From assembly GCA_050953885.1 (NCBI GenBank), contig JBMNNJ010000001.1:399437-463436 (forward strand): a stretch of 64,000 bases of DNA, in the 5' to 3' direction. Source of the DNA: Patescibacteria group bacterium (GTDB lineage Bacteria > Patescibacteriota > Microgenomatia > 0-14-0-10-38-17). The position numbers and the translations under genes are program-made. The first letter of the stretch is position 1. The number at the start of each line of letters is the position of its first letter. The notes under the pieces are model-generated. The model was given only the letters and a program-made list of their open reading frames with translations, ran no database searches and was not told the origin of the DNA. Positions 50,701 to 64,000 of the stretch are shown here, piece after piece.

Positions 50701-53700
50701 CCCTGACGGGGGAGCAATACCTCGCCACCTCAAGAGGTGGCACCGGCGATGACACCTCCTCTACCACTGGTGTCCCCTACATTTCTTCCGGCAACTGGCA
50801 ATATGAATCAAGTTTAAATGTGAGCCGGGGCGGCACTGGGTTTTCTTCTTTAGCAGCTGGCTCCCTAATCTACGGTTCCGGCTCCTCCCCAATGAACGCT
50901 TTAGCAATTGGCACTACTAACTATGTTTTAACCTCCAATGGTTCTGCTCCTAACTGGTCACTAATTAGCCAGGCAAATATCAGTCCTGATTCTCTAGACT
51001 TTGACCAATTCCAGGATACCCTAGATCTGGATACTGACTTAGTCTTAAATCAAGCCGCTTACACCTGGACGCAAAACTTTACCGGAGCAACTACTACCGG
51101 CTTAACTTACAACGCTAATGCTTTAACTTCAGGAAAAGGGGTATATGTTTCTTCTACTTCAACTGGTTTAACAGGAAACTTGGCAGAAATAAGTCTGTCG
51201 GGAAACAATGCCGCCAACACCGGTAATGTTTTAAGACTGGCCCAAACTGGCGCCTTATCAGCGGCAATTCCTTTAATGGTGACCAATCTTGGCGCCGGCG
51301 CTTCCTTCAGGGTTAACGATGAAACGGGCGACAATGACAGCACCCCCTTTATTATTGATGCTTCCGGCGCTGTGGGGGTGGGAACAGCCATGCCAAACGC
51401 CTCGGCAATTCTTGATTTAACTTCAACCGCCAAGGGCTTTCTTGCTCCAAGAATGACTACCAGCCAAAGAGATGCTATTGTTAACCCCGCCGCCGGCCTT
51501 TTAATCTATAACACCACCACCAATCAATATAACATGTATAACGGCACGGGCTGGACTCTTATTGGCGGCGGAGATGTTTCTTGGAGTAGCTTAATTGACC
51601 CGACAGAAAATCTCTTGCTAAACCATGGGGCCTACACCACCACCTTTACCTGGGGAGCCTCAACCGGAGCTAATAACCTCTTTACCCTTACCGATACGGC
51701 CAACAATACCGGCACGGGCTACCTTTTAAACCTTAATACCGCCACGGGGTCAAGTCTTAAACCTTTAAGGGTGGCTTCGGCCGGAGTTGAGGCTTTGGCC
51801 ATCGATGCCGCCGGCAATGTGGGGATCGGGACAACGAGCCCGGGAGAAAAGTTGGATGTAGTTGGAGCAATCCGTTCCAGTGGAGTCGATGTATCATCTT
51901 TAAATCCAGGAACAAGCACCACCGGAGGTTTATATTTAGGTGCACATATGGGACACCTTATACTTGACTTAAGAAATAATGATTCCAATGACTCAATTGC
52001 TTTCCGATATTCAGCGGCAAACAACACAGTAGTAGATACTATTGGTCTAGTTATGAAAGGCGGAACTGGCAACGTCGGCATCGGCACCACCAGCCCCGGG
52101 GCAACCTTGGATGTTAACGGCAACTTACGAATTGGCACCCTGACAACAGGCTCCACCGATACCGTCTTAACCCACTCCAACAATATTGTCCAGCAAAGAA
52201 CAATTGATCCCCGGGTTTGGGGGGAAACCTTGGTAGACGGCAGCGGTAGTGCCGGCTATGTGGCCTACTGGCAGGATGCCAATACCCTGACGGGGGAGCA
52301 ATACCTCGCCACCTCAAGAGGTGGCACCGGCGATGACACCTCCTCTACCACTGGTGTCCCCTACATTTCTTCCGGCAACTGGCAATATGAATCAAGTTTA
52401 AATGTGAGCCGGGGCGGCACTGGGTTTTCTTCTTTAGCAGCTGGCTCCCTAATCTACGGTTCCGGCTCCTCCCCAATGAACGCTTTAGCAATTGGCACTA
52501 CTAACTATGTTTTAACCTCCAATGGTTCTGCTCCTAACTGGTCACTAATTAGCCAGGCAAATATCAGTCCTGATTCTCTAGACTTTGACCAATTCCAGGA
52601 TACCCTAGATCTGGATACTGACTTAGTCTTAAATCAAGCCGCTTACACCTGGACGCAAAACTTTACCGGAGCAACTACTACCGGCTTAACTTACAACGCT
52701 AATGCTTTAACTTCAGGAAAAGGGGTATATGTTTCTTCTACTTCAACTGGTTTAACAGGAAACTTGGCAGAAATAAGTCTGTCGGGAAACAATGCCGCCA
52801 ACACCGGTAATGTTTTAAGACTGGCCCAAACTGGCGCCTTATCAGCGGCAATTCCTTTAATGGTGACCAATCTTGGCGCCGGCGCTTCCTTCAGGGTTAA
52901 CGATGAAACGGGCGACAATGACAGCACCCCCTTTATTATTGATGCTTCCGGCGCTGTGGGGGTGGGAACAGCCATGCCAAACGCCTCGGCAATTCTTGAT
53001 TTAACTTCAACCGCCAAGGGCTTTCTTGCTCCAAGAATGACTACCAGCCAAAGAGATGCTATTGTTAACCCCGCCGCCGGCCTTTTAATCTATAACACCA
53101 CCACCAATCAATATAACATGTATAACGGCACGGGCTGGACTCTTATTGGCGGCGGAGATGTTTCTTGGAGTAGCTTAATTGACCCGACAGAAAATCTCTT
53201 GCTAAACCATGGGGCCTACACCACCACCTTTACCTGGGGAGCCTCAACCGGAGCTAATAACCTCTTTACCCTTACCGATACGGCCAACAATACCGGCACG
53301 GGCTACCTTTTAAACCTTAATACCGCCACGGGGTCAAGTCTTAAACCTTTAAGGGTGGCTTCGGCCGGAGTTGAGGCTTTGGCCATCGATGCCGCCGGCA
53401 ATGTGGGGATCGGGACAACGAGCCCGGGAGAAAAGTTGGATGTAGTTGGAGCAATCCGTTCCAGTGGAGTCGATGTATCATCTTTAAATCCAGGAACAAG
53501 CACCACCGGAGGTTTATATTTAGGTGCACATATGGGACACCTTATACTTGACTTAAGAAATAATGATTCCAATGACTCAATTGCTTTCCGATATTCAGCG
53601 GCAAACAACACAGTAGTAGATACTATTGGTCTAGTTATGAAAGGCGGAACTGGCAACGTCGGCATCGGCACCACCAGCCCCGGGGCAACCTTGGATGTTA

Positions 53701-56700
53701 ACGGCAACTTACGAATTGGCACCCTGACAACAGGCTCCACCGATACCGTCTTAACCCACTCCAACAATATTGTCCAGCAAAGAACAATTGATCCCCGGGT
53801 TTGGGGGGAAACCTTGGTAGACGGCAGCGGTAGTGCCGGCTATGTGGCCTACTGGCAGGATGCCAATACCCTGACGGGGGAGCAATACCTCGCCACCTCA
53901 AGAGGTGGCACCGGCGATGACACCTCCTCTACCACTGGTGTCCCCTACATTTCTTCCGGCAACTGGCAATATGAATCAAGTTTAAATGTGAGCCGGGGCG
54001 GCACTGGGTTTTCTTCTTTAGCAGCTGGCTCCCTAATCTACGGTTCCGGCTCCTCCCCAATGAACGCTTTAGCAATTGGCACTACTAACTATGTTTTAAC
54101 CTCCAATGGTTCTGCTCCTAACTGGTCACTAATTAGCCAGGCAAATATCAGTCCTGATTCTCTAGACTTTGACCAATTCCAGGATACCCTAGATCTGGAT
54201 ACTGACTTAGTCTTAAATCAAGCCGCTTACACCTGGACGCAAAACTTTACCGGAGCAACTACTACCGGCTTAACTTACAACGCTAATGCTTTAACTTCAG
54301 GAAAAGGGGTATATGTTTCTTCTACTTCAACTGGTTTAACAGGAAACTTGGCAGAAATAAGTCTGTCGGGAAACAATGCCGCCAACACCGGTAATGTTTT
54401 AAGACTGGCCCAAACTGGCGCCTTATCAGCGGCAATTCCTTTAATGGTGACCAATCTTGGCGCCGGCGCTTCCTTCAGGGTTAACGATGAAACGGGCGAC
54501 AATGACAGCACCCCCTTTATTATTGATGCTTCCGGCGCTGTGGGGGTGGGAACAGCCATGCCAAACGCCTCGGCAATTCTTGATTTAACTTCAACCGCCA
54601 AGGGCTTTCTTGCTCCAAGAATGACTACCAGCCAAAGAGATGCTATTGTTAACCCCGCCGCCGGCCTTTTAATCTATAACACCACCACCAATCAATATAA
54701 CATGTATAACGGCACGGGCTGGACTCTTATTGGCGGCGGAGATGTTTCTTGGAGTAGCTTAATTGACCCGACAGAAAATCTCTTGCTAAACCATGGGGCC
54801 TACACCACCACCTTTACCTGGGGAGCCTCAACCGGAGCTAATAACCTCTTTACCCTTACCGATACGGCCAACAATACCGGCACGGGCTACCTTTTAAACC
54901 TTAATACCGCCACGGGGTCAAGTCTTAAACCTTTAAGGGTGGCTTCGGCCGGAGTTGAGGCTTTGGCCATCGATGCCGCCGGCAATGTGGGGATCGGGAC
55001 AACGAGCCCGGGAGAAAAGTTGGATGTAGTTGGAGCAATCCGTTCCAGTGGAGTCGATGTATCATCTTTAAATCCAGGAACAAGCACCACCGGAGGTTTA
55101 TATTTAGGTGCACATATGGGACACCTTATACTTGACTTAAGAAATAATGATTCCAATGACTCAATTGCTTTCCGATATTCAGCGGCAAACAACACAGTAG
55201 TAGATACTATTGGTCTAGTTATGAAAGGCGGAACTGGCAACGTCGGCATCGGCACCACCAGCCCCGGGGCAACCTTGGATGTTAACGGCAACTTACGAAT
55301 TGGCACCCTGACAACAGGCTCCACCGATACCGTCTTAACCCACTCCAACAATATTGTCCAGCAAAGAACAATTGATCCCCGGGTTTGGGGGGAAACCTTG
55401 GTAGACGGCAGCGGTAGTGCCGGCTATGTGGCCTACTGGCAGGATGCCAATACCCTGACGGGGGAGCAATACCTCGCCACCTCAAGAGGTGGCACCGGCG
55501 ATGACACCTCCTCTACCACTGGTGTCCCCTACATTTCTTCCGGCAACTGGCAATATGAATCAAGTTTAAATGTGAGCCGGGGCGGCACTGGGTTTTCTTC
55601 TTTAGCAGCTGGCTCCCTAATCTACGGTTCCGGCTCCTCCCCAATGAACGCTTTAGCAATTGGCACTACTAACTATGTTTTAACCTCCAATGGTTCTGCT
55701 CCTAACTGGTCACTAATTAGCCAGGCAAATATCAGTCCTGATTCTCTAGACTTTGACCAATTCCAGGATACCCTAGATCTGGATACTGACTTAGTCTTAA
55801 ATCAAGCCGCTTACACCTGGACGCAAAACTTTACCGGAGCAACTACTACCGGCTTAACTTACAACGCTAATGCTTTAACTTCAGGAAAAGGGGTATATGT
55901 TTCTTCTACTTCAACTGGTTTAACAGGAAACTTGGCAGAAATAAGTCTGTCGGGAAACAATGCCGCCAACACCGGTAATGTTTTAAGACTGGCCCAAACT
56001 GGCGCCTTATCAGCGGCAATTCCTTTAATGGTGACCAATCTTGGCGCCGGCGCTTCCTTCAGGGTTAACGATGAAACGGGCGACAATGACAGCACCCCCT
56101 TTATTATTGATGCTTCCGGCGCTGTGGGGGTGGGAACAGCCATGCCAAACGCCTCGGCAATTCTTGATTTAACTTCAACCGCCAAGGGCTTTCTTGCTCC
56201 AAGAATGACTACCAGCCAAAGAGATGCTATTGTTAACCCCGCCGCCGGCCTTTTAATCTATAACACCACCACCAATCAATATAACATGTATAACGGCACG
56301 GGCTGGACTCTTATTGGCGGCGGAGATGTTTCTTGGAGTAGCTTAATTGACCCGACAGAAAATCTCTTGCTAAACCATGGGGCCTACACCACCACCTTTA
56401 CCTGGGGAGCCTCAACCGGAGCTAATAACCTCTTTACCCTTACCGATACGGCCAACAATACCGGCACGGGCTACCTTTTAAACCTTAATACCGCCACGGG
56501 GTCAAGTCTTAAACCTTTAAGGGTGGCTTCGGCCGGAGTTGAGGCTTTGGCCATCGATGCCGCCGGCAATGTGGGAATTGGGACGACGAGTCCGGGGGCA
56601 AAGCTACATGTAAATGCTGGTGCAGCACAATTGACAATGGAAAGAGATGAAACCCACATTAACACATGGGATTTCAGAATCACTCAGGAGGCGGGCATCT

Positions 56701-59700
56701 CTGCAAACTCCCTATACCTGAGAGCGTCAGAAAATACAGCCGACTTTGGAATAAGGGCAGCTAATTCTGGGAACGTCCAGTTCATTTTGAAGGGCCCAAC
56801 AGGCAACGTCGGCATCGGGACGACGGCGCCGGGGGCGAAGCTTGATGTTAACGGAACGGGTAGGTTTGCCACTTCCGTGTCTTCGCCTCTTTTTCAAGGT
56901 GATACCGGGGCGGTTACCTTTGGCAATGCTTCCTATGCCACCACCATTGCCGGTTCAGGATTAACCATCTCTCCTACTGCCTGGACAGCCACTCCTACCA
57001 TATCAGGGCTTATTACCGCTACTTTAGGATTAACCGCCAATGGAGCCTTAACCGCCAACAGCACCTTCACTTTAGGAGACGGCGCTGATGCCGGTTCGGT
57101 TAATACCTCAAGTTGGGATATCTCCACCACTGGCGTCGCCTCGGGATTTACCGGCCTTACTTCCTCCGGCACGATCACCTTCTCTTCTCTGGCCGCCAAC
57201 CGACTGGTGACCACCACCACAGGAGGAGAACTAACCACCAGCGCCGAGGGGACTGTCGGCCAGCCCTTACTTTCCGGAGGGACATCCTCCCCCAACTGGG
57301 GGACTCTTGGTCTGGTTTATGGCGGTACCAATGCCGATCTTTCCGGGGTGGCCCAAGGAGGGCTAATTTACAAGGAAACTTCCGCCTTAGCCGGCACCGG
57401 GGCCTTAACGGGAATTCTTCAGGGAAATAACGCCAGCGCCCCCACCGCCATCACCGGCACCGCCAATTATCTGCCCAAATGGTCCTCAACCGCCCCTTAC
57501 CTCACCACCGCTTCCCAAATTTTCGACAGCGGCGCTAATGTCGGCATTGGCAATAGCAATCCTCAAGCCCTGCTTCATGTGGGCGCCGGCGGCACGCCCA
57601 ATTATGCTTCAAGCGGCGATGTTTATATCCAAAACGATCTCGAAGTGGACGGCACCATTTACGGCGCGCTGGATATTACCGACGCCACTTTTGACTTTTT
57701 GGAAGTTAAGCGGGCGGCCACTTTCTCCGCCCAAATCGCCTCGGATATTCCCATTACCGTTAAAAACACCGGCGGCAATGAGGTGGCGCGGTTCACCAAC
57801 GAGGGCAAGCTAAGACTTGGTTCTGCCGGCGCGCCCACCGACACTTTAGATATTGATGGCGACGCTGATATTTCCGGCAACTTGGATGTGGGCAATGGCC
57901 TTGATGTTTTAGGCGCCAACTTCACCGTCGGCGGCGCTAACTTTACCGTTAGCCAAGCCGGCACGGTGACCGGCGGCACCTACAACGGCCAAACTATTTC
58001 CTCCACTGCCAGCTTTACCGGCACTCTTAGCGTCGCTTCAACCTTCAACGCTAATAGCAATGTGGGCTTGGGAAACGAAGCCACCGACACCATCAACGCC
58101 GCCGGGCAATTTGTCTCCGGCCTTATCCCCCAAACAAACAGTTATAACCTTGGCTCCCCCACTAACCACTGGGGCGCTTTGTACGTTGATTCCATTTACG
58201 GCGGTCAGGTGGGCGAATTTGACTTTCTTAAGGCCCGGGGCGCCACCCTCTCGGCCGAAATCCCCACCGACAAAACCTTGGTTTTGGAAGGCCTTGCTTC
58301 CGGCCATACCGCCAATTTAATTGAAGCCAACGCCAACGGCGCCACCGCTCTCACCCTCTCCCCGGCCGGCAATTTAACCTTAGGAGGAACGATAACTTTA
58401 CCCAACGGTAACACCTTAACCGGCGTGGCTTCTTATATTCAATTTAACAATGGCATAAGCGTTGGCGGGGGAACCACCTATCGGCTCACCTCCACTGGCG
58501 ACGCATATCTTAATAATCTCTACACCGGCGGAACGCAAAGGCTTTCTTCAACCGGCGCCCTTGCCAACATTACCGACTACAGCCAATCCTCCGGCAATTT
58601 CGCCATTTCGGGAACTGGCACTTTCTCTACCGCCACCGGCAATATCTCCCTAAATGGAGCCACCACCGTAGCCGACGGCAAATCTTTCACCGCCAACGGG
58701 CCGGTGACCTTGGGCGACGGGGGCGATGCGGTGGCCATTAACAGCAACATTTGGGATATTACCTCGGCCGGCGTCGCTTCCGGCTTAACCCAATTAACCG
58801 TTGACAACCTCCAGCTTGACGGCAACACTCTTTCTTCAACCACGGACAACATTACTCTTGACGCCGCCGCTTACTTGGTGATTGCCGACCAAATTGCCTC
58901 AAGCTTAATTCCTTCCGCCACCAACACTTATGATTTGGGCTCCCCGGAGAACTACTGGGACGATGCTTACATCAACACTTTAACCGCTAATTCGCTAAAT
59001 TTTGATTTTATCGCCGCCCGCGGCGCCACTTTTTCGGCCGAAATCCCCACCGACAAAACCTTGGTTCTTAATGCCGCTACCGGCCAAACCGCCAATCTTT
59101 TGGAAATCAATTCCGCCCCCGGCGCCAGCGGCGACTTAATGGTGGTCACCGGCGGCGGCAATGTCGGCATTGGCAACAGCAATCCGGGAACATATAAATT
59201 AGATGTGGCGGGCACGGGAAGATTTAATTCCACCGCTAATCCGGGGTTAACGGTTGGCAACGGCGCTATTGGCTATTTAAAAATTGGCGGCTCAACTATT
59301 TATGATAACAACAGCGACTTAACTTTAGACTCCGATACTGCCTTGGTGATTTTAGCCGATGATTTGCAAATTAACGGCAATGATATTTATGATTCCGGCG
59401 CAAACCAGAGAATCAATTTGGGCGCCACCACCACTTTATACAACACCACCACCATCCTTTCGGGCACCACCGCCTTAACCGCCTCTTCCTTGGCAACCTT
59501 TACCACCGCCTCCTCTTTGGCAATGCCCGCCACCACCTCTTTAACCTTAGGCGGTTCAGCAACCATCTACGGCGGCACGACGGCTTCAGGAACACTAACT
59601 CTTCAGTCAACTTCAAACGCCACCAAAGGCAATATCCTAATTAATCCTTCTGGCGGCAATGTCGGCATCGGGACGACGGGGCCGGGGGCGAAATTATCTA

Positions 59701-62700
59701 TTAATGGCTCGCCAGCGATAGAGTTTGCTTCTTGCGGGACTTCTTACGGAGGTTGTTATATCAAGGAAGGATGGGGCCCTGAATTATATTCCAATACATC
59801 GCAACCTTTTCAAGTTTTAAATACTTCACTTTTGGTTGGATATGACCAAACAGATTCAACCGCCAGAGGAAGCGGTAATTTACTCGTAAGCGGCAATGTC
59901 GGCATCGGGACGACGGGGCCGAACACTGAACTAAGTTTAAATCACGGTTATATAAATTTTGAGCCCTCGCTAACCTCGTGGCTAAAAACTGGAGGAGAAG
60001 GAATACTTATGTGGAACTCTAATGATATTGAGTGGCTCGAATCAACATACGAGAGCGGATACGGCCACAGATTATATTCCATCGATCCTGGGGCAGGTGC
60101 AGTTACACACCTTCGGCTAGCCGCAAGAAATAACTCTGCCTCGTGGACAGATATGGTTACTTTTGTTTCTAACGGCAACGTCGGCATCGGGACGACGGGG
60201 CCACAACATAAATTACATATTTATACGACAACCGCACAAGAGGGAATAATTATTAACGCTGGCACTTATCCAGAAATCAGATTTGAAGAGGCTGGAACAG
60301 TAAGAGGCTATCTTAGCGTTGCTGGAAGCGCAGGAGGATATGGAACAGGCACATTAGCTGATTCTATGATACTTCGCGCTGAAGGTAATATGCATCTTAT
60401 TACGAATGCAGGGACTGTGGTACAAACATTAACCAGTGGCGGCAATGTGGGCATTGGGACAACAACTCCGGGGGCAAGACTGGATGTTAACGGCAATTTA
60501 AAAATCGCCACCCTGACAACCGGCGCCACCAATACGGTTTTAACCCACAGCGGCAATATTGTCCAGCAAAGAACCATTGATTCCCGAGTTTGGGGATCAG
60601 CGTTGGTTGATTATTCCGGCACCTCGGCTAACTACATTCCCAAAATGCTTGACGCCGACACGATTACCAATTCCCTAATTTACGAAGCCGCCAGCAGCCG
60701 CCGCATCGGCATTAGCACCACCAGCCCGGGTTCAAAATTAACCGTTGCCGGCGGCGCTTCCTATTTTGGCGCCCTGCCTGCCCCCACCGGAGTAGTGGCC
60801 ACTCCCACCTCGGGAGGCGGCTTAGTGGCGGGAACTTACTATTATGTGGTCAACGCCTTTGACAGCAACAACCTTTCCTCAAACAAATCAAGCCAGGTTT
60901 CCTGCACGGTTGATGGCTCTACCACCACCGCCTGCCAAATTTCCTGGGTGGCCGTTCCCGGCGCCACCAACTACCGCGTTTACGGCAGAGCCAGCAACGC
61001 CCAAAACCAATACTGGCAAACCACTTCTCTCTACTACACCGACACCGGCGCCGCCGGCGCCAGCGACACGCCGCCGGGACCAATCTCCGCTTTCTTTACC
61101 GGCAATATAAAAGCGGAACGCTTTGCGGATTCGGCTAACGACACCTACTACCTTGATCCGGCCTATGCCACTCTTTCCCTCACCACCGCCGGAGCGGCGG
61201 GCATCGGCTACTCGGCCGGCCAGATGAGCGGTGCCACCGCCAAGCTGGCCGTTGACGGCAATGTGGGAATTGGGACGACGAGTCCGGGGGCAAAGCTACA
61301 TGTAAATGCTGGTGCAGCACAATTGACAATGGAAAGAGATGAAACCCACATTAACACATGGGATTTCAGAATCACTCAGGAGGCGGGCATCTCTGCAAAC
61401 TCCCTATACCTGAGAGCGTCAGAAAATACAGCCGACTTTGGAATAAGGGCAGCTAATTCTGGGAACGTCCAGTTCATTTTGAAGGGCCCAACAGGCAACG
61501 TCGGCATCGGGACAGTTTTCGGCGAAGCAGATACTACAGGAAAATTGAACGTAAGAAAAGATAGCACAGCAGATGGAATGATTAGCGATGTTCTTACGTT
61601 GCGCAATCATTGGCATACCGTTACTAATATAGGAACTGGAATTGCATTGAGATTTAAACAAGGATCAACCAGCGAAACCGGAAAGCTTGTTGATATTGGT
61701 TCAATTGCTGAAAGTGGGTGGAGCAACGCAGTCGGTTTCTTTGTTAAGACTGGTGGTACTGAAAGGTTAAGAATAAGTAACGGCGGCAACGTCGGCATCG
61801 GGACAGCGAGTCCAAGTTACCCACTACACGTATATAAAAATGCAGGTGACTGGACGGCGCGCTTCCAAAACACTTCGGGATCCATAGATATTGGACCAGC
61901 CAATGGTAGTGGAGCCCACATTTATACAGACCTAAGCCAATTTTTCTTTAATCAACCCATTACCCTCACGGGCACCAGCAGTATTTCTTCTTATTCCACG
62001 AATAATCTCTATCTTAAAACAGGTACGCAGGCTAACACAAGGATGACAATTCTTGCTAGTAATGGCAATGTCGGCATCGGGACGACGGGGCCTGTTCAAA
62101 AATTGCATGTTGAAGGCAATTGTGTAACGGGAGATACAAAGTTAGCAATTTTTGAGGATCACAGTTCACAGTTCACAGTTCACAGCAATGCTCCTTCAGA
62201 GCAGATCACAGATCACAGATCACAGTTCACGGAAATACAAATAAAGGATATAAAATCAGGAACAAAAGTATATTCGCTAAATCAAGAAACTGGGAAACTA
62301 GAACCTGCTAGGATCAACAAACTTCTTGACATGGGAACAAAGCCTGTATTTAAATTAACTACAGAGGGTGGAAAAGAGATTCGCACCACTGGCAACCACC
62401 CATATCTTGCCCAACTATCTTATGAACAATACCAGCAAAGAGTTCAACTTCGAGAAACTGGAAGTTTGGAAGAAGAGTATGGCCTTAGTCAAGGCGATCT
62501 ATCAGTTGCTCGAGAGTTTTCCCAAACACGAGAGGTATGGTCTAGTGGATCAACTTCGCCGAGCAGCAACCTCAATTCTTCTGAATATCGCCGAGGGGAA
62601 CGGGAGGTACAGCCACAAGGAATTTATCCAATTTCTCTATCAGGCCAGGGGCAGTCTCTACGAGGTGGTGGCTTGTCTCAAACTAACTCAAGAGCTGGGT

Positions 62701-64000
62701 TACTTAACTCAGCAACAGATTACTCCTCTACTCCAACAGACTCACGAGATCAACAGGATGCTCTCGGGGCTGATCAATTATCTCAAGAAGAAAGCTGGCA
62801 AAGCCAGCTAAATCACGGTTCACCGTTCACGGATCACAGATGGGTGAAGGTGATTTATTTATCTCCAGGTGACTCTATTGCTACCGCTTCTTTCTGTGAA
62901 CCAAGAACAGTGAACGGTGAACCACGAGCCGAAGGCGAGTATAACTCCCGTGAACTACGATCTGTGAACTGTGAACCATACGTTGTTTGGGACAAAATCG
63001 TTTCCATCGAGTATGTTGGCTATGAGCAGGTCTATGACATAGAGGTTGAGGGCACGCATAACTTTGTTGCTAATGGAATTTTGGCCCATAACACGTATAT
63101 TAGCGGCAATGTCGGCATCGGGACGACGAGTCCGGGGTACAAACTAGACGTAAATGGAACACTAAACGCCACATCAATCTATGAGAACGGAACACCGCTC
63201 TCTAACAGTTATAGCAACGTTGTTTATAAATATGGGCCAACAGGTTTAAATGGAGCGGCCACTAGTGATTTTGGATTAAGAATTACTCACTCAACTGGTG
63301 ATACCAGTCACGCTGACCATGGTTCTTATTTAGTTAACATTAAAAGCAGGTACATTGATGAAACGTGGCTTTTCTACTTAGCATCTGAATATCTCGGGGC
63401 ATACAAGTATAATATAGAGCGGGTGGGTGGGCATACGAACAGCGTTACCGCAGTACTGGTAACAAATACTAGTACGAGTTTTCAATTAGAACTGCAAACA
63501 TCAGGATCACAAAATGACTGGCATAGCGTAACGGTCACTAGAGTTGGGTATTCTCAGTCCGGTAATCCAACGTTTAGTTACATTGATTCCACAGCATTTA
63601 GTGCTGGTACTACTGTTGGTAGGAAATCTTGGATTGGGAATAACAATGGTGGAACAAGTACTTACTATAGCGGCAACGTCGGCATCGGGACGACGAGTCC
63701 AGGGTATACACTACATGTTAACGGCACGGCCAATATCGGCTCTTCTTTATACGTTGCCGGCAACCAACGCTTTAATTCCTCCGGCGCTCTTATTCCCCAT
63801 ACCGTTTCTTCAACCACTAAATTTACTAACCTTAACGCCGATATGGTTGACGGTTATAGCTACTCCTCCTCTTGGCCAAATGCCTCAAATACTGTCCTGC
63901 GTTCAGGCTCCACTACAAACTACATACCAAAATGGAGCGGAACCTATACCCTAACTAATTCAATTATCTACGATAACGGCACCAATGTCGGCATCGGGAC
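47769..64000 (+). CDS. Giant tail-fibre-like repeat surface protein, more than 5,400 codons in the window and still open at the window end
   Basis: The frame of 47769 (positions divisible by 3) has no listed stop to 64000. Hand translation of several long stretches confirmed it is open. N-terminal integrase-CB-like module (IQAYLKRLKKEGASPATLKRKEAALKKFQSW), a TM anchor (FLIGLVLLASLGWGVY), then modules with the GNVGIGTTxPxxKL(D/H)VNG motif. Also LAPRMTTSQRDAIVNPAAGLLIYNTTTNQYNMYNGTGW, and an FN3 segment (YYYVVNAFDSNN...ISWVAVPGATNYRVYG). All ORF-track entries in this span are in other frames or antisense. Confidence 0.85.
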   Translation, partial: MTNRTNRTNNRTNSAGFLEPLQIQAYLKRLKKEGASPATLKRKEAALKKFQSWQGKEYGPKYPLPKGAPKPKKIISKKGIFPKAFPPFLRYFSFLIGLVLLASLGWGVYSQFFAQPKETPSMAFPTNPPLLISFQGQLTDDDGTPINATIPAIFRLYNVDEGGTALWEEQKNVSTDQDGIFNTFLGDTATLDPAIFRDNMNLWLAIEIDNDGEMEPRQQIATVGYAFNSRYLQGYEATTAATANTIPVINADGDLILASSSPAIEATSGTFGLKGEAITIQSTGGTGGGDILIQPDADTQGQVIIYSATTADNSFTVQNSNITTGSLIYGEAGTSASGYNLLKLTSGSLLTDKFVVDYAGNTDIAGNLTVDSSGFFGNSVGIGTTSPGATLDVNGNLRIGTLTTGSTDTVLTHSNNIVQQRTIDPRVWGETLVDGSGSAGYVAYWQDANTLTGEQYLATSRGGTGDDTSSTTGVPYISSGNWQYESSLNVSRGGTGFSSLAAGSLIYGSGSSPMNALAIGTTNYVLTSNGSAPNWSLISQANISPDSLDFDQFQDTLDLDTDLVLNQAAYTWTQNFTGATTTGLTYNANALTSGKGVYVSSTSTGLTGNLAEISLSGNNAANTGNVLRLAQTGALSAAIPLMVTNLGAGASFRVNDETGDNDSTPFIIDASGAVGVGTAMPNASAILDLTSTAKGFLAPRMTTSQRDAIVNPAAGLLIYNTTTNQYNMYNGTGWTLIGGGDVSWSSLIDPTENLLLNHGAYTTTFTWGASTGANNLFTLTDTANNTGTGYLLNLNTATGSSLKPLRVASAGVEALAIDAAGNVGIGTTSPGEKLDVVGAIRSSGVDVSSLNPGTSTTGGLYLGAHMGHLILDLRNNDSNDSIAFRYSAANNTVVDTIGLVMKGGTGNVGIGTTSPGATLDVNGNLRIGTLTTGSTDTVLTHSNNIVQQRTIDPRVWGETLVDGSGSAGYVAYWQDANTLTGEQYLATSRGGTGDDTSSTTGVPYISSGNWQYESSLNVSRGGTGFSSLAAGSLIYGSGSSPMNALAIGTTNYVLTSNGSAPNWSLISQANISPDSLDFDQFQDTLDLDTDLVLNQAAYTWTQNFTGATTTGLTYNANALTSGKGVYVSSTSTGLTGNLAEISLSGNNAANTGNVLRLAQTGALSAAIPLMVTNLGAGASFRVNDETGDNDSTPFIIDASGAVGVGTAMPNASAILDLTSTAKGFLAPRMTTSQRDAIVNPAAGLLIYNTTTNQYNMYNGTGWTLIGGGDVSWSSLIDPTENLLLNHGAYTTTFTWGASTGANNLFTLTDTANNTGTGYLLNLNTATGSSLKPLRVASAGVEALAIDAAGNVGIGTTSPGEKLDVVGAIRSSGVDVSSLNPGTSTTGGLYLGAHMGHLILDLRNNDSNDSIAFRYSAANNTVVDTIGLVMKGGTGNVGIGTTSPGATLDVNGNLRIGTLTTGSTDTVLTHSNNIVQQRTIDPRVWGETLVDGSGSAGYVAYWQDANTLTGEQYLATSRGGTGDDTSSTTGVPYISSGNWQYESSLNVSRGGTGFSSLAAGSLIYGSGSSPMNALAIGTTNYVLTSNGSAPNWSLISQANISPDSLDFDQFQDTLDLDTDLVLNQAAYTWTQNFTGATTTGLTYNANALTSGKGVYVSSTSTGLTGNLAEISLSGNNAANTGNVLRLAQTGALSAAIPLMVTNLGAGASFRVNDETGDNDSTPFIIDASGAVGVGTAMPNASAILDLTSTAKGFLAPRMTTSQRDAIVNPAAGLLIYNTTTNQYNMYNGTGWTLIGGGDVSWSSLIDPTENLLLNHGAYTTTFTWGASTGANNLFTLTDTANNTGTGYLLNLNTATGSSLKPLRVASAGVEALAIDAAGNVGIGTTSPGEKLDVVGAIRSSGVDVSSLNPGTSTTGGLYLGAHMGHLILDLRNNDSNDSIAFRYSAANNTVVDTIGLVMKGGTGNVGIGTTSPGATLDVNGNLRIGTLTTGSTDTVLTHSNNIVQQRTIDPRVWGETLVDGSGSAGYVAYWQDANTLTGEQYLATSRGGTGDDTSSTTGVPYISSGNWQYESSLNVSRGGTGFSSLAAGSLIYGSGSSPMNALAIGTTNYVLTSNGSAPNWSLISQANISPDSLDFDQFQDTLDLDTDLVLNQAAYTWTQNFTGATTTGLTYNANALTSGKGVYVSSTSTGLTGNLAEISLSGNNAANTGNVLRLAQTGALSAAIPLMVTNLGAGASFRVNDETGDNDSTPFIIDASGAVGVGTAMPNASAILDLTSTAKGFLAPRMTTSQRDAIVNPAAGLLIYNTTTNQYNMYNGTGWTLIGGGDVSWSSLIDPTENLLLNHGAYTTTFTWGASTGANNLFTLTDTANNTGTGYLLNLNTATGSSLKPLRVASAGVEALAIDAAGNVGIGTTSPGEKLDVVGAIRSSGVDVSSLNPGTSTTGGLYLGAHMGHLILDLRNNDSNDSIAFRYSAANNTVVDTIGLVMKGGTGNVGIGTTSPGATLDVNGNLRIGTLTTGSTDTVLTHSNNIVQQRTIDPRVWGETLVDGSGSAGYVAYWQDANTLTGEQYLATSRGGTGDDTSSTTGVPYISSGNWQYESSLNVSRGGTGFSSLAAGSLIYGSGSSPMNALAIGTTNYVLTSNGSAPNWSLISQANISPDSLDFDQFQDTLDLDTDLVLNQAAYTWTQNFTGATTTGLTYNANALTSGKGVYVSSTSTGLTGNLAEISLSGNNAANTGNVLRLAQTGALSAAIPLMVTNLGAGASFRVNDETGDNDSTPFIIDASGAVGVGTAMPNASAILDLTSTAKGFLAPRMTTSQRDAIVNPAAGLLIYNTTTNQYNMYNGTGWTLIGGGDVSWSSLIDPTENLLLNHGAYTTTFTWGASTGANNLFTLTDTANNTGTGYLLNLNTATGSSLKPLRVASAGVEALAIDAAGNVGIGTTSPGAKLHVNAGAAQLTMERDETHINTWDFRITQEAGISANSLYLRASENTADFGIRAANSGNVQFILKGPTGNVGIGTTAPGAKLDVNGTGRFATSVSSPLFQGDTGAVTFGNASYATTIAGSGLTISPTAWTATPTISGLITATLGLTANGALTANSTFTLGDGADAGSVNTSSWDISTTGVASGFTGLTSSGTITFSSLAANRLVTTTTGGELTTSAEGTVGQPLLSGGTSSPNWGTLGLVYGGTNADLSGVAQGGLIYKETSALAGTGALTGILQGNNASAPTAITGTANYLPKWSSTAPYLTTASQIFDSGANVGIGNSNPQALLHVGAGGTPNYASSGDVYIQNDLEVDGTIYGALDITDATFDFLEVKRAATFSAQIASDIPITVKNTGGNEVARFTNEGKLRLGSAGAPTDTLDIDGDADISGNLDVGNGLDVLGANFTVGGANFTVSQAGTVTGGTYNGQTISSTASFTGTLSVASTFNANSNVGLGNEATDTINAAGQFVSGLIPQTNSYNLGSPTNHWGALYVDSIYGGQVGEFDFLKARGATLSAEIPTDKTLVLEGLASGHTANLIEANANGATALTLSPAGNLTLGGTITLPNGNTLTGVASYIQFNNGISVGGGTTYRLTSTGDAYLNNLYTGGTQRLSSTGALANITDYSQSSGNFAISGTGTFSTATGNISLNGATTVADGKSFTANGPVTLGDGGDAVAINSNIWDITSAGVASGLTQLTVDNLQLDGNTLSSTTDNITLDAAAYLVIADQIASSLIPSATNTYDLGSPENYWDDAYINTLTANSLNFDFIAARGATFSAEIPTDKTLVLNAATGQTANLLEINSAPGASGDLMVVTGGGNVGIGNSNPGTYKLDVAGTGRFNSTANPGLTVGNGAIGYLKIGGSTIYDNNSDLTLDSDTALVILADDLQINGNDIYDSGANQRINLGATTTLYNTTTILSGTTALTASSLATFTTASSLAMPATTSLTLGGSATIYGGTTASGTLTLQSTSNATKGNILINPSGGNVGIGTTGPGAKLSINGSPAIEFASCGTSYGGCYIKEGWGPELYSNTSQPFQVLNTSLLVGYDQTDSTARGSGNLLVSGNVGIGTTGPNTELSLNHGYINFEPSLTSWLKTGGEGILMWNSNDIEWLESTYESGYGHRLYSIDPGAGAVTHLRLAARNNSASWTDMVTFVSNGNVGIGTTGPQHKLHIYTTTAQEGIIINAGTYPEIRFEEAGTVRGYLSVAGSAGGYGTGTLADSMILRAEGNMHLITNAGTVVQTLTSGGNVGIGTTTPGARLDVNGNLKIATLTTGATNTVLTHSGNIVQQRTIDSRVWGSALVDYSGTSANYIPKMLDADTITNSLIYEAASSRRIGISTTSPGSKLTVAGGASYFGALPAPTGVVATPTSGGGLVAGTYYYVVNAFDSNNLSSNKSSQVSCTVDGSTTTACQISWVAVPGATNYRVYGRASNAQNQYWQTTSLYYTDTGAAGASDTPPGPISAFFTGNIKAERFADSANDTYYLDPAYATLSLTTAGAAGIGYSAGQMSGATAKLAVDGNVGIGTTSPGAKLHVNAGAAQLTMERDETHINTWDFRITQEAGISANSLYLRASENTADFGIRAANSGNVQFILKGPTGNVGIGTVFGEADTTGKLNVRKDSTADGMISDVLTLRNHWHTVTNIGTGIALRFKQGSTSETGKLVDIGSIAESGWSNAVGFFVKTGGTERLRISNGGNVGIGTASPSYPLHVYKNAGDWTARFQNTSGSIDIGPANGSGAHIYTDLSQFFFNQPITLTGTSSISSYSTNNLYLKTGTQANTRMTILASNGNVGIGTTGPVQKLHVEGNCVTGDTKLAIFEDHSSQFTVHSNAPSEQITDHRSQFTEIQIKDIKSGTKVYSLNQETGKLEPARINKLLDMGTKPVFKLTTEGGKEIRTTGNHPYLAQLSYEQYQQRVQLRETGSLEEEYGLSQGDLSVAREFSQTREVWSSGSTSPSSNLNSSEYRRGEREVQPQGIYPISLSGQGQSLRGGGLSQTNSRAGLLNSATDYSSTPTDSRDQQDALGADQLSQEESWQSQLNHGSPFTDHRWVKVIYLSPGDSIATASFCEPRTVNGEPRAEGEYNSRELRSVNCEPYVVWDKIVSIEYVGYEQVYDIEVEGTHNFVANGILAHNTYISGNVGIGTTSPGYKLDVNGTLNATSIYENGTPLSNSYSNVVYKYGPTGLNGAATSDFGLRITHSTGDTSHADHGSYLVNIKSRYIDETWLFYLASEYLGAYKYNIERVGGHTNSVTAVLVTNTSTSFQLELQTSGSQNDWHSVTVTRVGYSQSGNPTFSYIDSTAFSAGTTVGRKSWIGNNNGGTSTYYSGNVGIGTTSPGYTLHVNGTANIGSSLYVAGNQRFNSSGALIPHTVSSTTKFTNLNADMVDGYSYSSSWPNASNTVLRSGSTTNYIPKWSGTYTLTNSIIYDNGTNVGIG
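48906..56575 (+). repeat. Perfect tandem array of five 1,584-bp coding units (528 aa each; the fifth is ~0.84 of a unit) inside the giant gene
   Basis: Unit starts at 48906, 50490, 52074, 53658 and 55242. The ORF-track antisense ORFs recur with an exact 1,584-bp period and identical sequences. Sequence diverges at about 56575. Confidence 0.9.
56558..56820 (+). repeat. Copy 1 of an exact ~252-bp duplication inside the giant gene. Copy 2 is at 61255-61507.
   Basis: By eye, identical from ggcaatgtgggaattgggacgacgagtccgggggcaaagctacatg ... to ggcaacgtcggcatcggga in both places. Confidence 0.85.
62157..62990 (+). repeat. Heptamer (TTCACAG/CTGTGAA) direct and inverted repeat blocks that bracket the intein interior and the nested four-helix-bundle ORF
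   Basis: Left block 62157-62231 (cacagttcacagttcacagttcacag...cacagatcacagatcacagttcacgg). Right blocks 62811-62843 (direct), 62893-62923 and 62949-62978 (inverted: ctgtgaactgtgaacc). These allow a long-range stem L/R3 and a local hairpin R1/R2. Confidence 0.7.
62422..62811 (+). CDS. Four-helix-bundle protein (23S rRNA intervening-sequence protein / Avd-like family) encoded in the +1 frame inside the intein
   Basis: The ORF-track ORF 62368..62811 contains a near-canonical family sequence: [83 protein letters not shown]. The likely start is MNNTSKEF at 62422. It sits where an intein homing endonuclease would be. Confidence 0.8.
   Translation: [129 protein letters not shown]

What the first reader, a model, noticed from the sequence alone, without database searches (positions are those of the whole stretch)
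59656..63130. A 24-30-nt DNA box, conserved beyond what the protein requires, recurs ~20 times at module boundaries in the giant gene
Variants of GGCAA(C/T)GTCGGCATCGGGACGACG(G/A)G(G/T)CC, which encodes GNVGIGTT, recur with near-perfect nucleotide identity, including at synonymous positions. Examples are at 56805, 59656, 59893, 60176, 61496, 61787, 62064, 63107, 63673 and 63986, with relatives at 48893, 50231, 50484 and 60440. An exact 252-bp duplication (56558-56820 and 61255-61507) also shows recent intragenic recombination. Conservation at the DNA level suggests the boxes serve as recombination or gene-conversion anchors that shuffle ~80-95-aa modules. That would be a cassette-like variation mechanism for a surface fibre.
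Basis: partly seen in the sequence, partly recalled or inferred. Interest (0 to 1): 0.7.

Follow-up and report, generated by a model that had tools for sequence, protein, structure and literature searches.

The report
Recombination box in a giant fibre gene
A 24-base stretch encoding the peptide GNVGIGTT is kept identical, silent positions included, at module boundaries of a giant tail-fibre-like surface gene of a Patescibacteria bacterium, and every recent duplication, deletion and module swap I could trace has its breakpoints in these boxes, so they are the places where the gene is reshuffled.

Summary
GGCAAYGTCGGCATCGGGACGACG occurs exactly 7 times, with 3 near-copies and about 19 other-codon variants, in one ORF of at least 5410 aa (47769 to beyond 64000).

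It uses codons that are rare in this gene (GTC 13%, GGG 12%, ACG 11%). Silent-site identity is confined to the box. Equally conserved P, L and V codons a few bases downstream are randomised.

The recombination reading is supported:
- A perfect 1584-bp x 4.84 tandem array and an exact 258-bp duplication have all four ends inside boxes.
- A second MAG shares 849 bp at 92% identity, bounded by boxes on both sides.
- A ~94%-identical relative joins box 50229 directly to the sequence after box 56802, lacking ~6.6 kb.

The phenomenon is general. Within-gene homogenisation of box wobble sites occurs in many viral, CPR and DPANN fibre genes. Some carry the same GC-rich box and some their own AT-rich version, so identity among copies is what is kept, which indicates concerted evolution.

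A programmed cassette system is not shown; I found no silent donors. The protein is homologous to Bdellovibrio MAT and phage tail fibres. The closest precedent is recombination at conserved motifs in T-even tail-fibre adhesins. I rate it a new variant of a known kind.

The parts
47769..64000 (+). Giant fibre ORF, incomplete at the window end (at least 5410 aa). It has a weak N-terminal integrase SAM-like domain and a hydrophobic segment, then modules delimited by GNVGIGTT(S/G/A)PG.KL.V.
   Evidence: Stop-free frame 47706-63998 and translation. Pfam Phage_int_SAM_1 weak hit, E=0.0034, below cut-off. PHROG tail-fibre families, 3e-28 and 1.9e-25. PDB Bdellovibrio MAT fibre 8OND, E=1.6e-8.
56802..56825 (+). 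Canonical box (AAC form). Its first 20 nt are also the right end of the 258-bp duplicate.
59655..59678 (+). Canonical box (AAT form), followed by GGGCCG
59892..59915 (+). Canonical box (AAT form)
60174..60197 (+). Canonical box (AAC form)
62064..62087 (+). Canonical box (AAT form), 57 nt upstream of the intein
63105..63128 (+). Canonical box (AAT form), 12 nt downstream of the intein
63672..63695 (+). Canonical box (AAC form)
61494..61517 (+). Near-canonical box. It is identical through GGGAC (the end of the 258-bp duplicate), then diverges (GTV...).
61785..61808 (+). Near-canonical box (GGCAACGTCGGCATCGGGACAGCG)
63981..64000 (+). Near-canonical box (ACCAATGTCGGCATCGGGAC), cut by the window end
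60441..60464 (+). Non-canonical box (GGCAATGTGGGCATTGGGACAACA). It is the left boundary of the 849-bp segment shared with L236.
61257..61280 (+). Non-canonical box (GGCAATGTGGGAATTGGGACGACG). It is the right boundary of the segment shared with L236 and the left end of the second copy of the 258-bp duplicate. The twin copy is at 56565-56588.
48906..56575 (+). Tandem array of 4.84 copies of a 1584-bp (528-aa) unit, 100% identical. The left end lies inside box 48897 and the right end inside box 56565. Each unit carries boxes of two other codon versions (50229 type and 50484 type).
   Evidence: Period-1584 identity run. Repeat families. An independent JGI contig confirms the unit-to-unit junction and then breaks.
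56564..56821 (+). Copy 1 of the exact 258-bp duplication (one module with a box at each end). It overlaps the array end by 12 nt (CGGCAATGTGGG).
61256..61513 (+). Copy 2 of the exact 258-bp duplication
60441..61289 (+). Segment shared at 92% nucleotide identity with contig JAQUQE010000141 (L236) of another MAG. Outside it, only the boxes match.
50229..56849 (+). Interval absent from the ~94%-identical relative L384, which joins the 50229 box in register to the sequence following the 56802 box.
62121..63092 (+). Intein of 324 aa (Cys1 ... His-Asn, then Thr+1) inserted just after a box motif. It is not part of the box mechanism but lies between two boxes.
   Evidence: Pfam Intein_splicing, 2.3e-21. 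Boundaries.

Best explanation
**What it is.** The box is the DNA that encodes the only long invariant peptide (GNVGIGTT) of a repeated structural motif. That motif is the capping-loop/neck motif of trimeric tail-fibre-like 'MAT' fibres, and it recurs at each module boundary of a giant surface fibre of a Patescibacteria (CPR) bacterium.

**How it works.**
- Eight invariant residues give 16 fixed bases out of 24, so the copies are similar enough to pair.
- Pairing between copies drives short-tract gene conversion confined to this block. That homogenises the wobble positions (concerted evolution) and produces 24-30-nt blocks of perfect identity inside otherwise unalignable DNA.
- These blocks then serve as in-frame, in-register crossover points for homologous recombination or template switching.

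**Outcomes seen.**
- Unequal exchange amplifies or deletes sets of modules: the 1584-bp array, and the 6.6-kb difference from L384.
- Patch conversion copies single modules: the 258-bp duplicate.
- Exchange with foreign fibre genes imports modules: the 849-bp segment shared with L236.

The result is a fibre whose length and module order change while the reading frame and the structural motif are kept.

**Shown.** The box-limited silent-site identity, the rarity of its codons, the position of every traceable breakpoint, and the generality across genes.

**Inferred.** That conversion is the homogenising force, which enzymes act (RecA-type recombination versus replication slippage), and that the variability is adaptive for a surface fibre.
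For: 1. **Box-limited silent-site identity.** Same-codon frequency is 0.46-1.0 in box columns against 0.32-0.50 expected. At the conserved P, L, V and G columns 3-30 nt downstream it equals expectation. Flanks of the exact copies are at random-level identity.
2. **Not codon preference.** GTC, ATC, GGG and ACG are 13, 26, 12 and 11% of their families in this gene. GC3 is 0.48 in the gene and 0.40 in neighbouring genes.
3. **Breakpoints in the window.** The array runs 48906-56575 and the duplicate is 56564-56821 = 61256-61513. All four ends are inside boxes.
4. **Between genomes.** L236 similarity starts at base 1 of box 60441 and stops at box 61257.
5. **Relative with a different structure.** L384 is collinear at 94% up to 46 nt past the start of box 50229. 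It then continues at 91% with the window from 47 nt past the start of box 56802.
6. **Generality.** In an unbiased sample of 118 viral loci (244 boxes), within-gene same-codon frequency in box columns is 0.47-0.83, against 0.25-0.50 between genes. Control columns barely differ: P 0.39/0.33, L 0.24/0.24, G 0.36/0.35.
7. **Gene-specific dialects.** WWE3 L381 has 9/9 canonical boxes and viral L061 has 18/19. Viral L190 is homogenised to GGTAATGTTGGTATAGGTACAACA, and L168 to another AT-rich form. Identity among copies, not one particular sequence, is what is maintained.
8. **Breakpoint enrichment.** Inter-contig similarity breakpoints lie within 10 nt of a box in 20 of 45 cases, against 4.8 +/- 2.0 expected.
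9. **Independent assembly.** JGI contig L233 is identical to the window over 13.4 kb. It contains the unit-end to unit-start junction before breaking 126 nt into copy 2.
Against: - No reads were available, so the array copy number (4.84) and the perfect identity of copies rest on one assembly.
- L384 is a 1x-coverage contig with indel errors, and L236 is a 2.8-kb contig. Assembly chimeras cannot be formally excluded. The partner boxes share under 12 nt of exact identity, which makes k-mer chimeras unlikely.
- Conversion tracts confined to 24 nt are shorter than usually documented, and no heteroduplex or conversion event restricted to a box was directly observed.
- The AAY wobble stays about 50:50 within otherwise identical boxes, which simple homogenisation does not predict.
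- The same GC-rich box recurs in bacteria, archaea and viruses of 29-67% GC. In the unbiased sample, 31 of 246 boxes match it at 5 or more of 7 wobble sites, against 0.7 expected. Within-genome conversion alone cannot explain this. It needs either gene flow through a shared pool or some sequence-specific constraint.
- Some genes (Margulisbacteria L383, viral L005) show no homogenisation.
Confidence: 0.72

Rival explanations
1. Programmed cassette-type antigenic variation. The giant gene would be an expression site into which silent donor modules elsewhere in the genome are copied at high frequency, with the boxes as the conserved flanks. This would resemble pilE/pilS, vlsE or MgPa systems.
For: Conserved short repeats flank variable modules. 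There is a patch-like 258-bp copy with both ends in boxes. Structural variants exist between relatives.
Against: No box or module copy lies outside the ORF in the 47.7 kb upstream. The donor of the 258-bp patch is inside the same gene. No adjacent catalytic recombinase, reverse transcriptase or G4-type initiator was seen. The same architecture occurs in hundreds of phage contigs, where such a system makes no sense. The rest of the 597-kb genome could not be examined.
Confidence: 0.07
2. The box is a functional nucleic-acid element selected at the nucleotide level. It could be a hairpin (stem CGUCG/CGACG with a 9-nt loop) in mRNA or single-stranded DNA. It could also be a cluster of slowly decoded codons (GGG ACG ACG) that pauses ribosomes at each module boundary so that the trimeric fibre folds co-translationally. 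Recombination at boxes would then be a by-product.
For: The isolated 30-mer folds at -15.5 kcal/mol, z = -3.6. Both wobble-wobble pairs of the stem are complementary in the canonical box, and the C/U alternation at the N wobble keeps a C-G or U-G pair. Wobble positions 9 and 21 show an excess of Watson-Crick combinations in viral boxes: 102 observed against 75 expected over all boxes. The box codons are rare in this gene. The same sequence recurs across domains.
Against: In its native context the hairpin is the predicted structure in only 2 of 4 cases, with z from -0.7 to +0.2 in three of them. With one box per locus, the 9-21 complementarity is not significant: OR 1.78, p = 0.13, 249 loci. 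A control pair (9-18) shows a similar excess, which indicates haplotype linkage. The loop wobble sites are equally fixed, which a stem does not explain. Other genes are homogenised to AT-rich versions with non-pairing wobbles, for example L190 with T at 9 and A at 21 but T/A at 6/24, and L168. There is no Rfam family. tRNA supply could not be assessed.
Confidence: 0.1
3. There is nothing beyond common descent. The modules would be recent duplicates or recent horizontal imports from a GC-rich donor, and the box simply has not had time to diverge or reflects the donor's codon usage.
For: All eight wobble bases of the canonical box are G or C (apart from AAT forms). The gene is more GC-rich (0.49-0.54) than the genome (about 0.42). 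Some parts are demonstrably very recent.
Against: Flanks of the seven exact boxes are at random-level identity (0.28-0.35), and wobble sites of the conserved P, L and V columns are randomised. The modules are therefore old while the box looks young. In 114 viral contigs carrying the exact box, flanking third positions are T/A-rich. The box occurs in contigs of 29-67% GC.
Confidence: 0.04
4. Assembly artefact. The perfect array, the 258-bp duplicate and the mosaics would be mis-joins made by assemblers at a repeated k-mer.
For: Perfect identity of 4.84 copies over 7.7 kb is unusual. The JGI assembly of the same population breaks inside the array. L384 has 1x coverage.
Against: The boxes themselves, which are the finding, are present in many independent assemblies from NCBI, JGI, ENA and IMG/VR. 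The JGI contig independently contains the unit-to-unit junction. The boxes joined in L384 and at the array end share only 8-12 nt of exact identity, too short for de Bruijn mis-joins at usual k. The junctions are all in frame and in register.
Confidence: 0.04

Closest known systems
Conserved-motif-mediated recombination in T-even phage tail-fibre adhesins: gp37 'His boxes' and gp38 glycine-rich motifs (Tetart et al. 1996, 1998, as cited in Trojet et al. 2011, PMC3157838)
   Same: Receptor-binding fibre genes are built of variable segments separated by short, highly conserved motifs. [quoted passage not shown] The motif is both a structural core element and a crossover point.
   Different: Here the motif is a different one (GNVGIGTT), repeated about 30 times in a cellular gene of at least 5400 aa in a CPR bacterium. 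The conservation is demonstrated at silent sites with a sharp 24-nt boundary. The same nucleotide version is shared by bacteria, archaea and viruses. The events include tandem amplification of a 1.6-kb module set. No crosses were done here.
Bdellovibrio bacteriovorus mosaic adhesive trimer (MAT) fibres (Caulton et al. 2024, PMC10769870; PDB 8OND, 8OJN, 8OML)
   Same: Direct sequence homology of the modules, including the box motif: 8OND E=1.6e-8, with alignment across ...GNLGLGTAAPTSALHV.... These are trimeric beta-helix/beta-prism fibres with recurring 'capping loop' motifs and chimeric, mosaic architecture.
   Different: The paper treats mosaicism at the protein and structure level. The text searched does not mention DNA-level boxes or recombination at the motif. 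Bdellovibrio fibres are about 1000 aa, while this one is over 5400 aa with an N-terminal integrase-SAM-like domain and an intein.
Perfect tandem repeats in bacterial surface proteins (alpha C/Rib, Esp and Bap families). From my own knowledge, not checked here.
   Same: Long repeats identical at the DNA level inside a surface protein gene. Copy number changes by homologous recombination and alters the length and antigenicity of the protein.
   Different: In those proteins whole repeats are identical. Here most modules are unrelated in sequence and only a 24-30-nt box is shared. The 1584-bp array is one local instance of that classical behaviour.
Cassette-based antigenic variation (Neisseria pilE/pilS, Borrelia vlsE, Mycoplasma genitalium MgPa/MgPar). 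From my own knowledge.
   Same: Variable segments flanked by short conserved sequences that guide segmental gene conversion.
   Different: Those systems have silent donor loci and high-frequency programmed switching. Neither was found here, and donors identified here are intragenic or foreign.
'Linker' sequences of the modular theory of phage evolution (Susskind and Botstein 1978). From my own knowledge.
   Same: Short conserved DNA between exchangeable modules, postulated to allow homologous recombination between otherwise unrelated genomes. The canonical box shared by more than 120 unrelated viral contigs behaves like such a linker.
   Different: The box lies inside a coding sequence and encodes a structural motif. 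The linkers were proposed between genes.

Membership tests
Tail-fibre-like / MAT trimeric fibre proteins | Sequence homology to characterised fibres | tested here: met
   PDB 8OND (Bd2133) E=1.6e-8, 8OJN E=1.6e-4, 8OML E=0.007. PHROG tail-fibre families phrog_18345 at 3e-28 and phrog_9942 at 1.9e-25. 2348 homologues, many named tail fiber domain-containing protein.
Tail-fibre-like / MAT trimeric fibre proteins | Recurring capping-loop motif (V-G-x-x-x-x-P-x-x-x-L type) on a beta-helical/beta-prism shaft | tested here: met
   GNVGIGTT.PG.KL.V recurs 29 times. It aligns to the equivalent motif in 8OND. The motif is described in PMC10769870. The 3D structure was not predicted here.
Tail-fibre-like / MAT trimeric fibre proteins | C-terminal S74 intramolecular chaperone/protease (S74 subgroup) or adhesin tip | not testable with these tools
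   The ORF runs off the window at 64000. Many homologues carry PF13884.
Concerted evolution by intragenic gene conversion or unequal exchange | Copies within a gene are more alike at silent sites than copies between genes | tested here: met
   Within-gene 0.47-0.83 against between-gene 0.25-0.50 in box columns across 118 viral loci. Box wobble identity is 1.0, 0.82 and 0.85 in L381, L380 and L061, against flank wobble identity of about 0.3.
Concerted evolution by intragenic gene conversion or unequal exchange | Different genes homogenised to different variants | tested here: met
   L190 and L168 carry AT-rich dialects. L381, L061 and the window carry the GC-rich dialect.
Concerted evolution by intragenic gene conversion or unequal exchange | Recombination products with breakpoints in the homogenised block | tested here: met
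Concerted evolution by intragenic gene conversion or unequal exchange | Direct observation of conversion events limited to the block | not testable with these tools
   This needs population long reads or mutation-accumulation lines.
Programmed cassette antigenic variation | Silent donor cassettes outside the expression site | tested here: not met
   No box at up to 3 mismatches outside 50229-63695 within the 64-kb window. The remainder of the genome was not available.
Programmed cassette antigenic variation | High-frequency switching within a clonal population | not testable with these tools
   No read data.
Structured RNA/DNA element | Compensatory covariation of paired positions | tested here: inconclusive
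   Wobble pair 9-21 has OR 1.78, p=0.13 with one box per locus. Over all boxes there is an excess, but the control pair 9-18 shows one as well. There is no Rfam hit.
Intein (side observation) | Hint/splicing domain with Cys1, a C-terminal His-Asn and a +1 nucleophile | tested here: met
   Pfam Intein_splicing at 2.3e-21. The sequence is CVTGDTKL...ILAHN followed by T, aa 4785-5108.

The most novel reading that the evidence does not exclude
The canonical 24-nt box GGCAAYGTCGGCATCGGGACGACG is a pan-domain recombination linker. It would be a nucleotide 'common currency' kept uniform across phages, CPR bacteria and DPANN archaea. The uniformity would be maintained by positive frequency-dependent (second-order) selection for compatibility with a shared pool of fibre modules, possibly helped by GC-biased repair. 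Under this reading these organisms and their viruses continually trade receptor-binding modules in frame through a 24-bp homology.

The evidence does not exclude it.
- The identical box is found in 9 of 9 motif copies of a WWE3 gene, and near-identical in 9 of 9 of a Nanoarchaeota gene at 36% GC.
- It is found in more than 120 viral contigs of 29-67% GC whose flanks are unrelated and AT-rich at silent sites.
- It is about 40-fold over-represented in an unbiased sample.
- Similarity breakpoints cluster at it.
Probability: 0.3. Interest if true: 0.8.

Novelty: new variant of a known kind. Interest (0 to 1): 0.6.

Why it matters
Giant surface fibres are among the few obvious host-interaction devices of CPR bacteria and DPANN archaea, which live attached to other cells. 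How such proteins diversify is unknown.

The data give a concrete, testable mechanism. A structural motif doubles as a 24-30-bp block of perfect DNA identity. In-frame module gain, loss and exchange take place at this block, within a gene, between strains and apparently between very distant genomes and their viruses.

It also offers:
- a clean natural example of silent-site conservation caused by recombination rather than by translation or RNA structure;
- a practical handle, namely a 20-nt probe that retrieves this gene class from any metagenome;
- a design rule for engineering chimeric fibres by joining at the box.

If the cross-domain uniformity of the box reflects a shared module pool, it would be evidence for ongoing gene flow linking phages, CPR and DPANN.

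Tried and rejected
- **Codon bias.** Rejected. The box codons are rare in the gene and in its neighbours.
- **Recent duplication of whole modules.** Rejected for the seven exact boxes. Their flanks are at random-level identity.
- **High-GC donors as the source of the canonical box.** Rejected as sufficient. Exact-box viral contigs span 29-67% GC, and their flanking third positions are T/A-rich.
- **Hairpin or covariation.**
  - The box can form a 5-bp stem.
  - Two extra viral scans conditioned on the V wobble gave OR 1.78, p = 0.13 for complementarity with one box per locus.
  - I leave this as inconclusive.
- **Known RNA family.** None found.
- **Literature on the peptide motif strings.** No hits.
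- **Genome and metagenome scans with the 60465-61256 module.** These returned only 1 and 4 distant loci. The source genome itself was not retrieved, so I could not examine the rest of the gene or the genome for donors.
- **Pfam on the fibre body.** No family in the local copy. The precomputed PF26696 'PTL_trimer' is attached to a 94%-identical fragment.
- **Protein search with 55866-57668 for junction variants.**
  - It mostly gave distant mosaics.
  - It did yield P0151, which led to L384, the informative relative.
- **Silent donor cassettes in the window.** None.
- **Structure prediction and fold search.** Not run, because direct PDB sequence homology already places the modules.
Full report
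**1. What is there**

The finding lies in a single + strand ORF. It starts at ATG 47769 and is still open at the window end, so it is at least 5410 aa.

The organism is a Patescibacteria (CPR) bacterium.
- Neighbouring proteins are identical to NCBI entries 'MAG: ... [Patescibacteria group bacterium]' on a 597,657-bp contig.
- Their closest named relatives are Woesebacteria and Shapirobacteria.
- The surroundings are cellular: tRNA genes and aminoacyl-tRNA synthetases.

The protein begins with a weak integrase N-terminal SAM-like domain and a hydrophobic segment. It then consists of modules separated by the motif GNVGIGTT(S/G/A)PG.KL.V, of which there are 29 instances. It is homologous to:
- phage tail-fibre families, PHROG 3e-28;
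- the solved Bdellovibrio 'mosaic adhesive trimer' fibres, 8OND at E = 1.6e-8, with the alignment running through the motif.

In those structures such motifs form capping loops on trimeric beta-helical shafts (PMC10769870). The motif therefore has a plain protein-level reason to be conserved.

**2.

The 24-mer GGCAAYGTCGGCATCGGGACGACG has 18 matches at up to 3 mismatches, against none in shuffles.
- Seven copies are exact: 56802, 59655, 59892, 60174, 62064, 63105 and 63672.
- Three are near-exact: 61494, 61785 and 63981.

The box is not what codon usage would give. GTC, ATC, GGG and ACG make up 13, 26, 12 and 11% of their codon families in the non-redundant gene outside the boxes. They are similarly rare in 15 neighbouring genes. 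Multiplying those frequencies gives about 1e-5 per instance for this codon set.

Column by column, the frequency with which two boxes use the same codon is 0.46-1.0 inside the box, against 0.32-0.50 expected. Only the N wobble sits at expectation. The frequency falls to expectation at the equally conserved P (+9: 0.35 vs 0.26), L (+13: 0.19 vs 0.21), V (+15: 0.37 vs 0.32) and G (+17: 0.42 vs 0.33).

Among the seven exact copies, nucleotide identity is:
- 0.98 in the box;
- 0.58 in the next 9 nt;
- 0.31 upstream;
- 0.35 and 0.28 downstream;
- 0.28 for random in-frame segments of the gene.

The modules are therefore old and saturated while the box looks young. Corrections are minor. Coordinates are off by 0-5 nt. 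The exact duplication is 258 bp (56564-56821 = 61256-61513), not 252.

**3. Breakpoints in the window**

A 1584-bp unit is repeated 4.84 times with 100% identity from 48906 to 56575.
- Its left end lies inside the box at 48897, between the N codon (plus an extra AGT) and the V codon.
- Its right end lies inside the box at 56565, after GGCAATGTGGG.

The 258-bp duplicate begins one base before a box and ends after GGGAC of another box. Its copy at 56564 overlaps the array end by the 12 shared bases CGGCAATGTGGG. All four ends of the two very recent events are thus in boxes, in frame and in register.

An independent JGI assembly of the same population is identical to the window over 13.4 kb. It contains the unit-end to unit-start junction and then terminates 126 nt into the second copy, as short-read assemblies do at true repeats.

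**4. Breakpoints between genomes**

The closest database protein (P0001, 57% identity overall) turned out to be a mosaic. Its contig (L236, from another MAG) matches the window at 92% nucleotide identity over 849 bp.
- The match begins at the first base of box 60441. Upstream identity is at background.
- It ends at the start of box 61257.
- Elsewhere the two genes share only the boxes themselves, at 26-33 nt and 96-100% identity.

A second relative (L384, ENA, about 94% identical) is collinear with the window from the upstream genes through the first array unit, up to 46 nt past the start of box 50229. It then continues at 91% identity with the window from 47 nt past the start of box 56802. 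Relative to the window it lacks about 6.6 kb: the rest of the array and the 258-bp module. The junction is an in-register hybrid box.

**5. The phenomenon is general**

These contigs span 29-67% GC. In 114 of them (one box each):
- flanking third positions are T/A-rich;
- the P wobble is random;
- the two unconstrained wobble sites just after the probe are G in 76% and 49% of cases.

*Unbiased scan.* I scanned with the fully degenerate pattern for GNVGIGTT (120 contigs, 246 boxes).
- The canonical 24-mer is the single commonest variant.
- 31 boxes match it at 5 or more of 7 wobble sites, against 0.7 expected from local third-position composition.
- Within-gene pairs of boxes use the same codon far more often than between-gene pairs in box columns (0.47-0.83 vs 0.25-0.50).
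- They do not in control columns: P 0.39 vs 0.33, L 0.24 vs 0.24, K 0.56 vs 0.56, G 0.36 vs 0.35.

*Cellular homologues.*
- A WWE3 gene has 9 of 9 canonical boxes at 43% GC.
- A Nanoarchaeota gene has 9 of 9 near-canonical boxes at 36% GC.
- A Paceibacteria gene has 4 of 6.
- Woesearchaeota and Margulisbacteria genes do not carry it.

*Other dialects.* Some genes are homogenised to other versions. Viral L190 uses GGTAATGTTGGTATAGGTACAACA in most of its 13 boxes, and L168 uses another AT-rich form. Identity among the copies within a gene is therefore the maintained property, not one particular sequence. That is the signature of concerted evolution.

*Breakpoint enrichment.* Among all inter-contig nucleotide matches in the collected loci, 20 of 45 breakpoints that lie in fibre genes are inside or within 10 nt of a box. 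The expectation is 4.8 +/- 2.0, with a maximum of 12 in 2000 randomisations.

**6. Mechanism**

The best-supported explanation runs as follows.
- The eight invariant residues fix 16 of 24 bases, enough for copies to pair.
- Short-tract conversion confined to that block homogenises the wobble sites. The variable residue at +8 interrupts homology, which explains the sharp 3' edge and the random P codon only 3-5 nt further on.
- The resulting 24-30-bp identity blocks act as crossover points. This is about the minimal length for efficient RecA-type recombination in E. coli, from my own knowledge.
- The products are tandem amplification or deletion, patch conversion, and import of foreign modules.

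*Shown:* the pattern of identity, the breakpoints and the generality.

*Inferred:* conversion as the homogenising force, the enzymes involved, and adaptive value.

*Unexplained by within-genome conversion alone:* the same GC-rich dialect is spread across bacteria, archaea and viruses. This needs gene flow through a shared pool, perhaps with frequency-dependent advantage of the common dialect or GC-biased repair, or else a sequence-specific constraint. Also unexplained is the free C/T alternation at the N wobble.

**7. Rivals**

- **Programmed cassette system.** Not supported. There are no boxes outside the gene in the window, donors are intragenic or foreign, and no catalytic recombinase is adjacent.
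- **Hairpin or translational pause element.**
  - The box can fold (z = -3.6 alone) but not consistently in context.
  - Complementarity of the two wobble-wobble stem pairs is suggestive over all boxes. It is not significant with one box per locus, even after two further scans (OR 1.78, p = 0.13), and a control pair behaves similarly.
  - Loop wobbles are equally fixed, and other dialects exist.
  - No Rfam family matches.
  - I keep this at about 10%.
- **Codon bias, recent descent and GC-rich origin.** Contradicted.
- **Assembly artefact.** Unlikely for the boxes and junctions. It remains possible for the exact array copy number.

**8. Comparison with what is known**

[quoted passage not shown] The protein family is that of the Bdellovibrio MAT fibres and S74-type tail fibres. 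The text of that paper does not discuss DNA-level boxes. A literature search for the motif strings found nothing.

The following appear not to have been described:
- the quantitative demonstration of box-limited silent-site homogenisation;
- a single nucleotide dialect shared across domains;
- its operation in a giant CPR surface protein.

I therefore rate it a new variant of a known kind, with moderate-to-good interest.

**9. Side observations**

A 324-aa intein (62121-63092) sits 57 nt after one box and 12 nt before the next. Homologous fibre proteins carry inteins at the same position relative to the motif. Other items are listed separately.

Noticed in passing
window 48906-56575: A 1584-bp (528-aa) unit is repeated 4.84 times in tandem with 100% identity inside the giant gene. 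A JGI short-read contig of the same population breaks 126 nt into the second copy.
   Followed up: yes
window 62121-63092: A 324-aa intein (CVTGDTKL...ILAHN|T; Pfam Intein_splicing 2.3e-21) sits inside a hypervariable surface-fibre gene. Its central ~180 aa are low-complexity with no endonuclease domain detected. Short 7-nt tandem repeats lie at 62159-62230. Inteins are usually found in conserved housekeeping genes.
   Followed up: partly
P0059, P0069 (homologues); L381:5130-6081: Other fibre homologues carry inteins at the same site relative to the motif (...LHV.G(Q/N)|CVTGDT(K/R)L ... AHN|T). A WWE3 locus has another intein-bearing gene next to its fibre gene. The conserved box DNA would make an ideal homing site. 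Co-conversion during homing could contribute to box uniformity, but I did not test this.
   Followed up: partly
window 46721-47203 and 47769-47930: A stand-alone 160-aa integrase N-terminal SAM-like domain protein (annotated 'site-specific integrase/XerD', no catalytic domain) lies just upstream. The giant protein itself starts with a weak copy of the same domain. The same N-terminal architecture is seen in a Microgenomates homologue (P0046). Its role is unknown.
   Followed up: partly
window 47216-47776: A 186-aa ORF with a weak 23S_rRNA_IVP (four-helix-bundle) hit lies between the SAM-like gene and the giant gene. It overlaps the start region of the giant gene by a few bases.
   Followed up: no
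window 48000-62000 vs 1-47000: The giant gene is more GC-rich (0.49-0.54; GC3 0.48, locally up to 0.62) than the rest of the window (0.38-0.45; GC3 0.40). GC3 drops to 0.34-0.39 in 61.9-63.7 kb. This patchwork composition is consistent with modules of different origin.
   Followed up: partly
window 60706-61256: The segment shared with L236 contains a degenerate box (RIGISTTSPGSKL, about 60700). It also contains a region resembling an FN3/Ig-like insert (GLVAGTYYYVVNAFD...CQISWVAVPGATNYRVYGR), unlike the ordinary ~90-aa modules.
   Followed up: no
window 50135-50599, 51719-52183, 53303-53767, 54887-55351 (minus strand): Four identical 154-aa antisense ORFs are listed mechanically. They are simply the same stretch of each array unit and are most likely not genes.
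   Followed up: no
L380 (Nanoarchaeota, GCA_024654565) and L381 (WWE3, GCA_002774885): An archaeal and a bacterial fibre gene carry the same 24-nt box in 9 of 9 motif copies, despite 36% and 43% GC and unrelated flanks. This is the cross-domain sharing of silent sites that motivates the 'shared module pool' reading.
   Followed up: partly
L236 (GCA_028716225, labelled Dehalococcoidales) and L237 (labelled Gammaproteobacteria): Contigs carrying CPR-type fibre genes are binned under unrelated phyla. This suggests mis-binning or real transfer. I did not resolve it.
   Followed up: no
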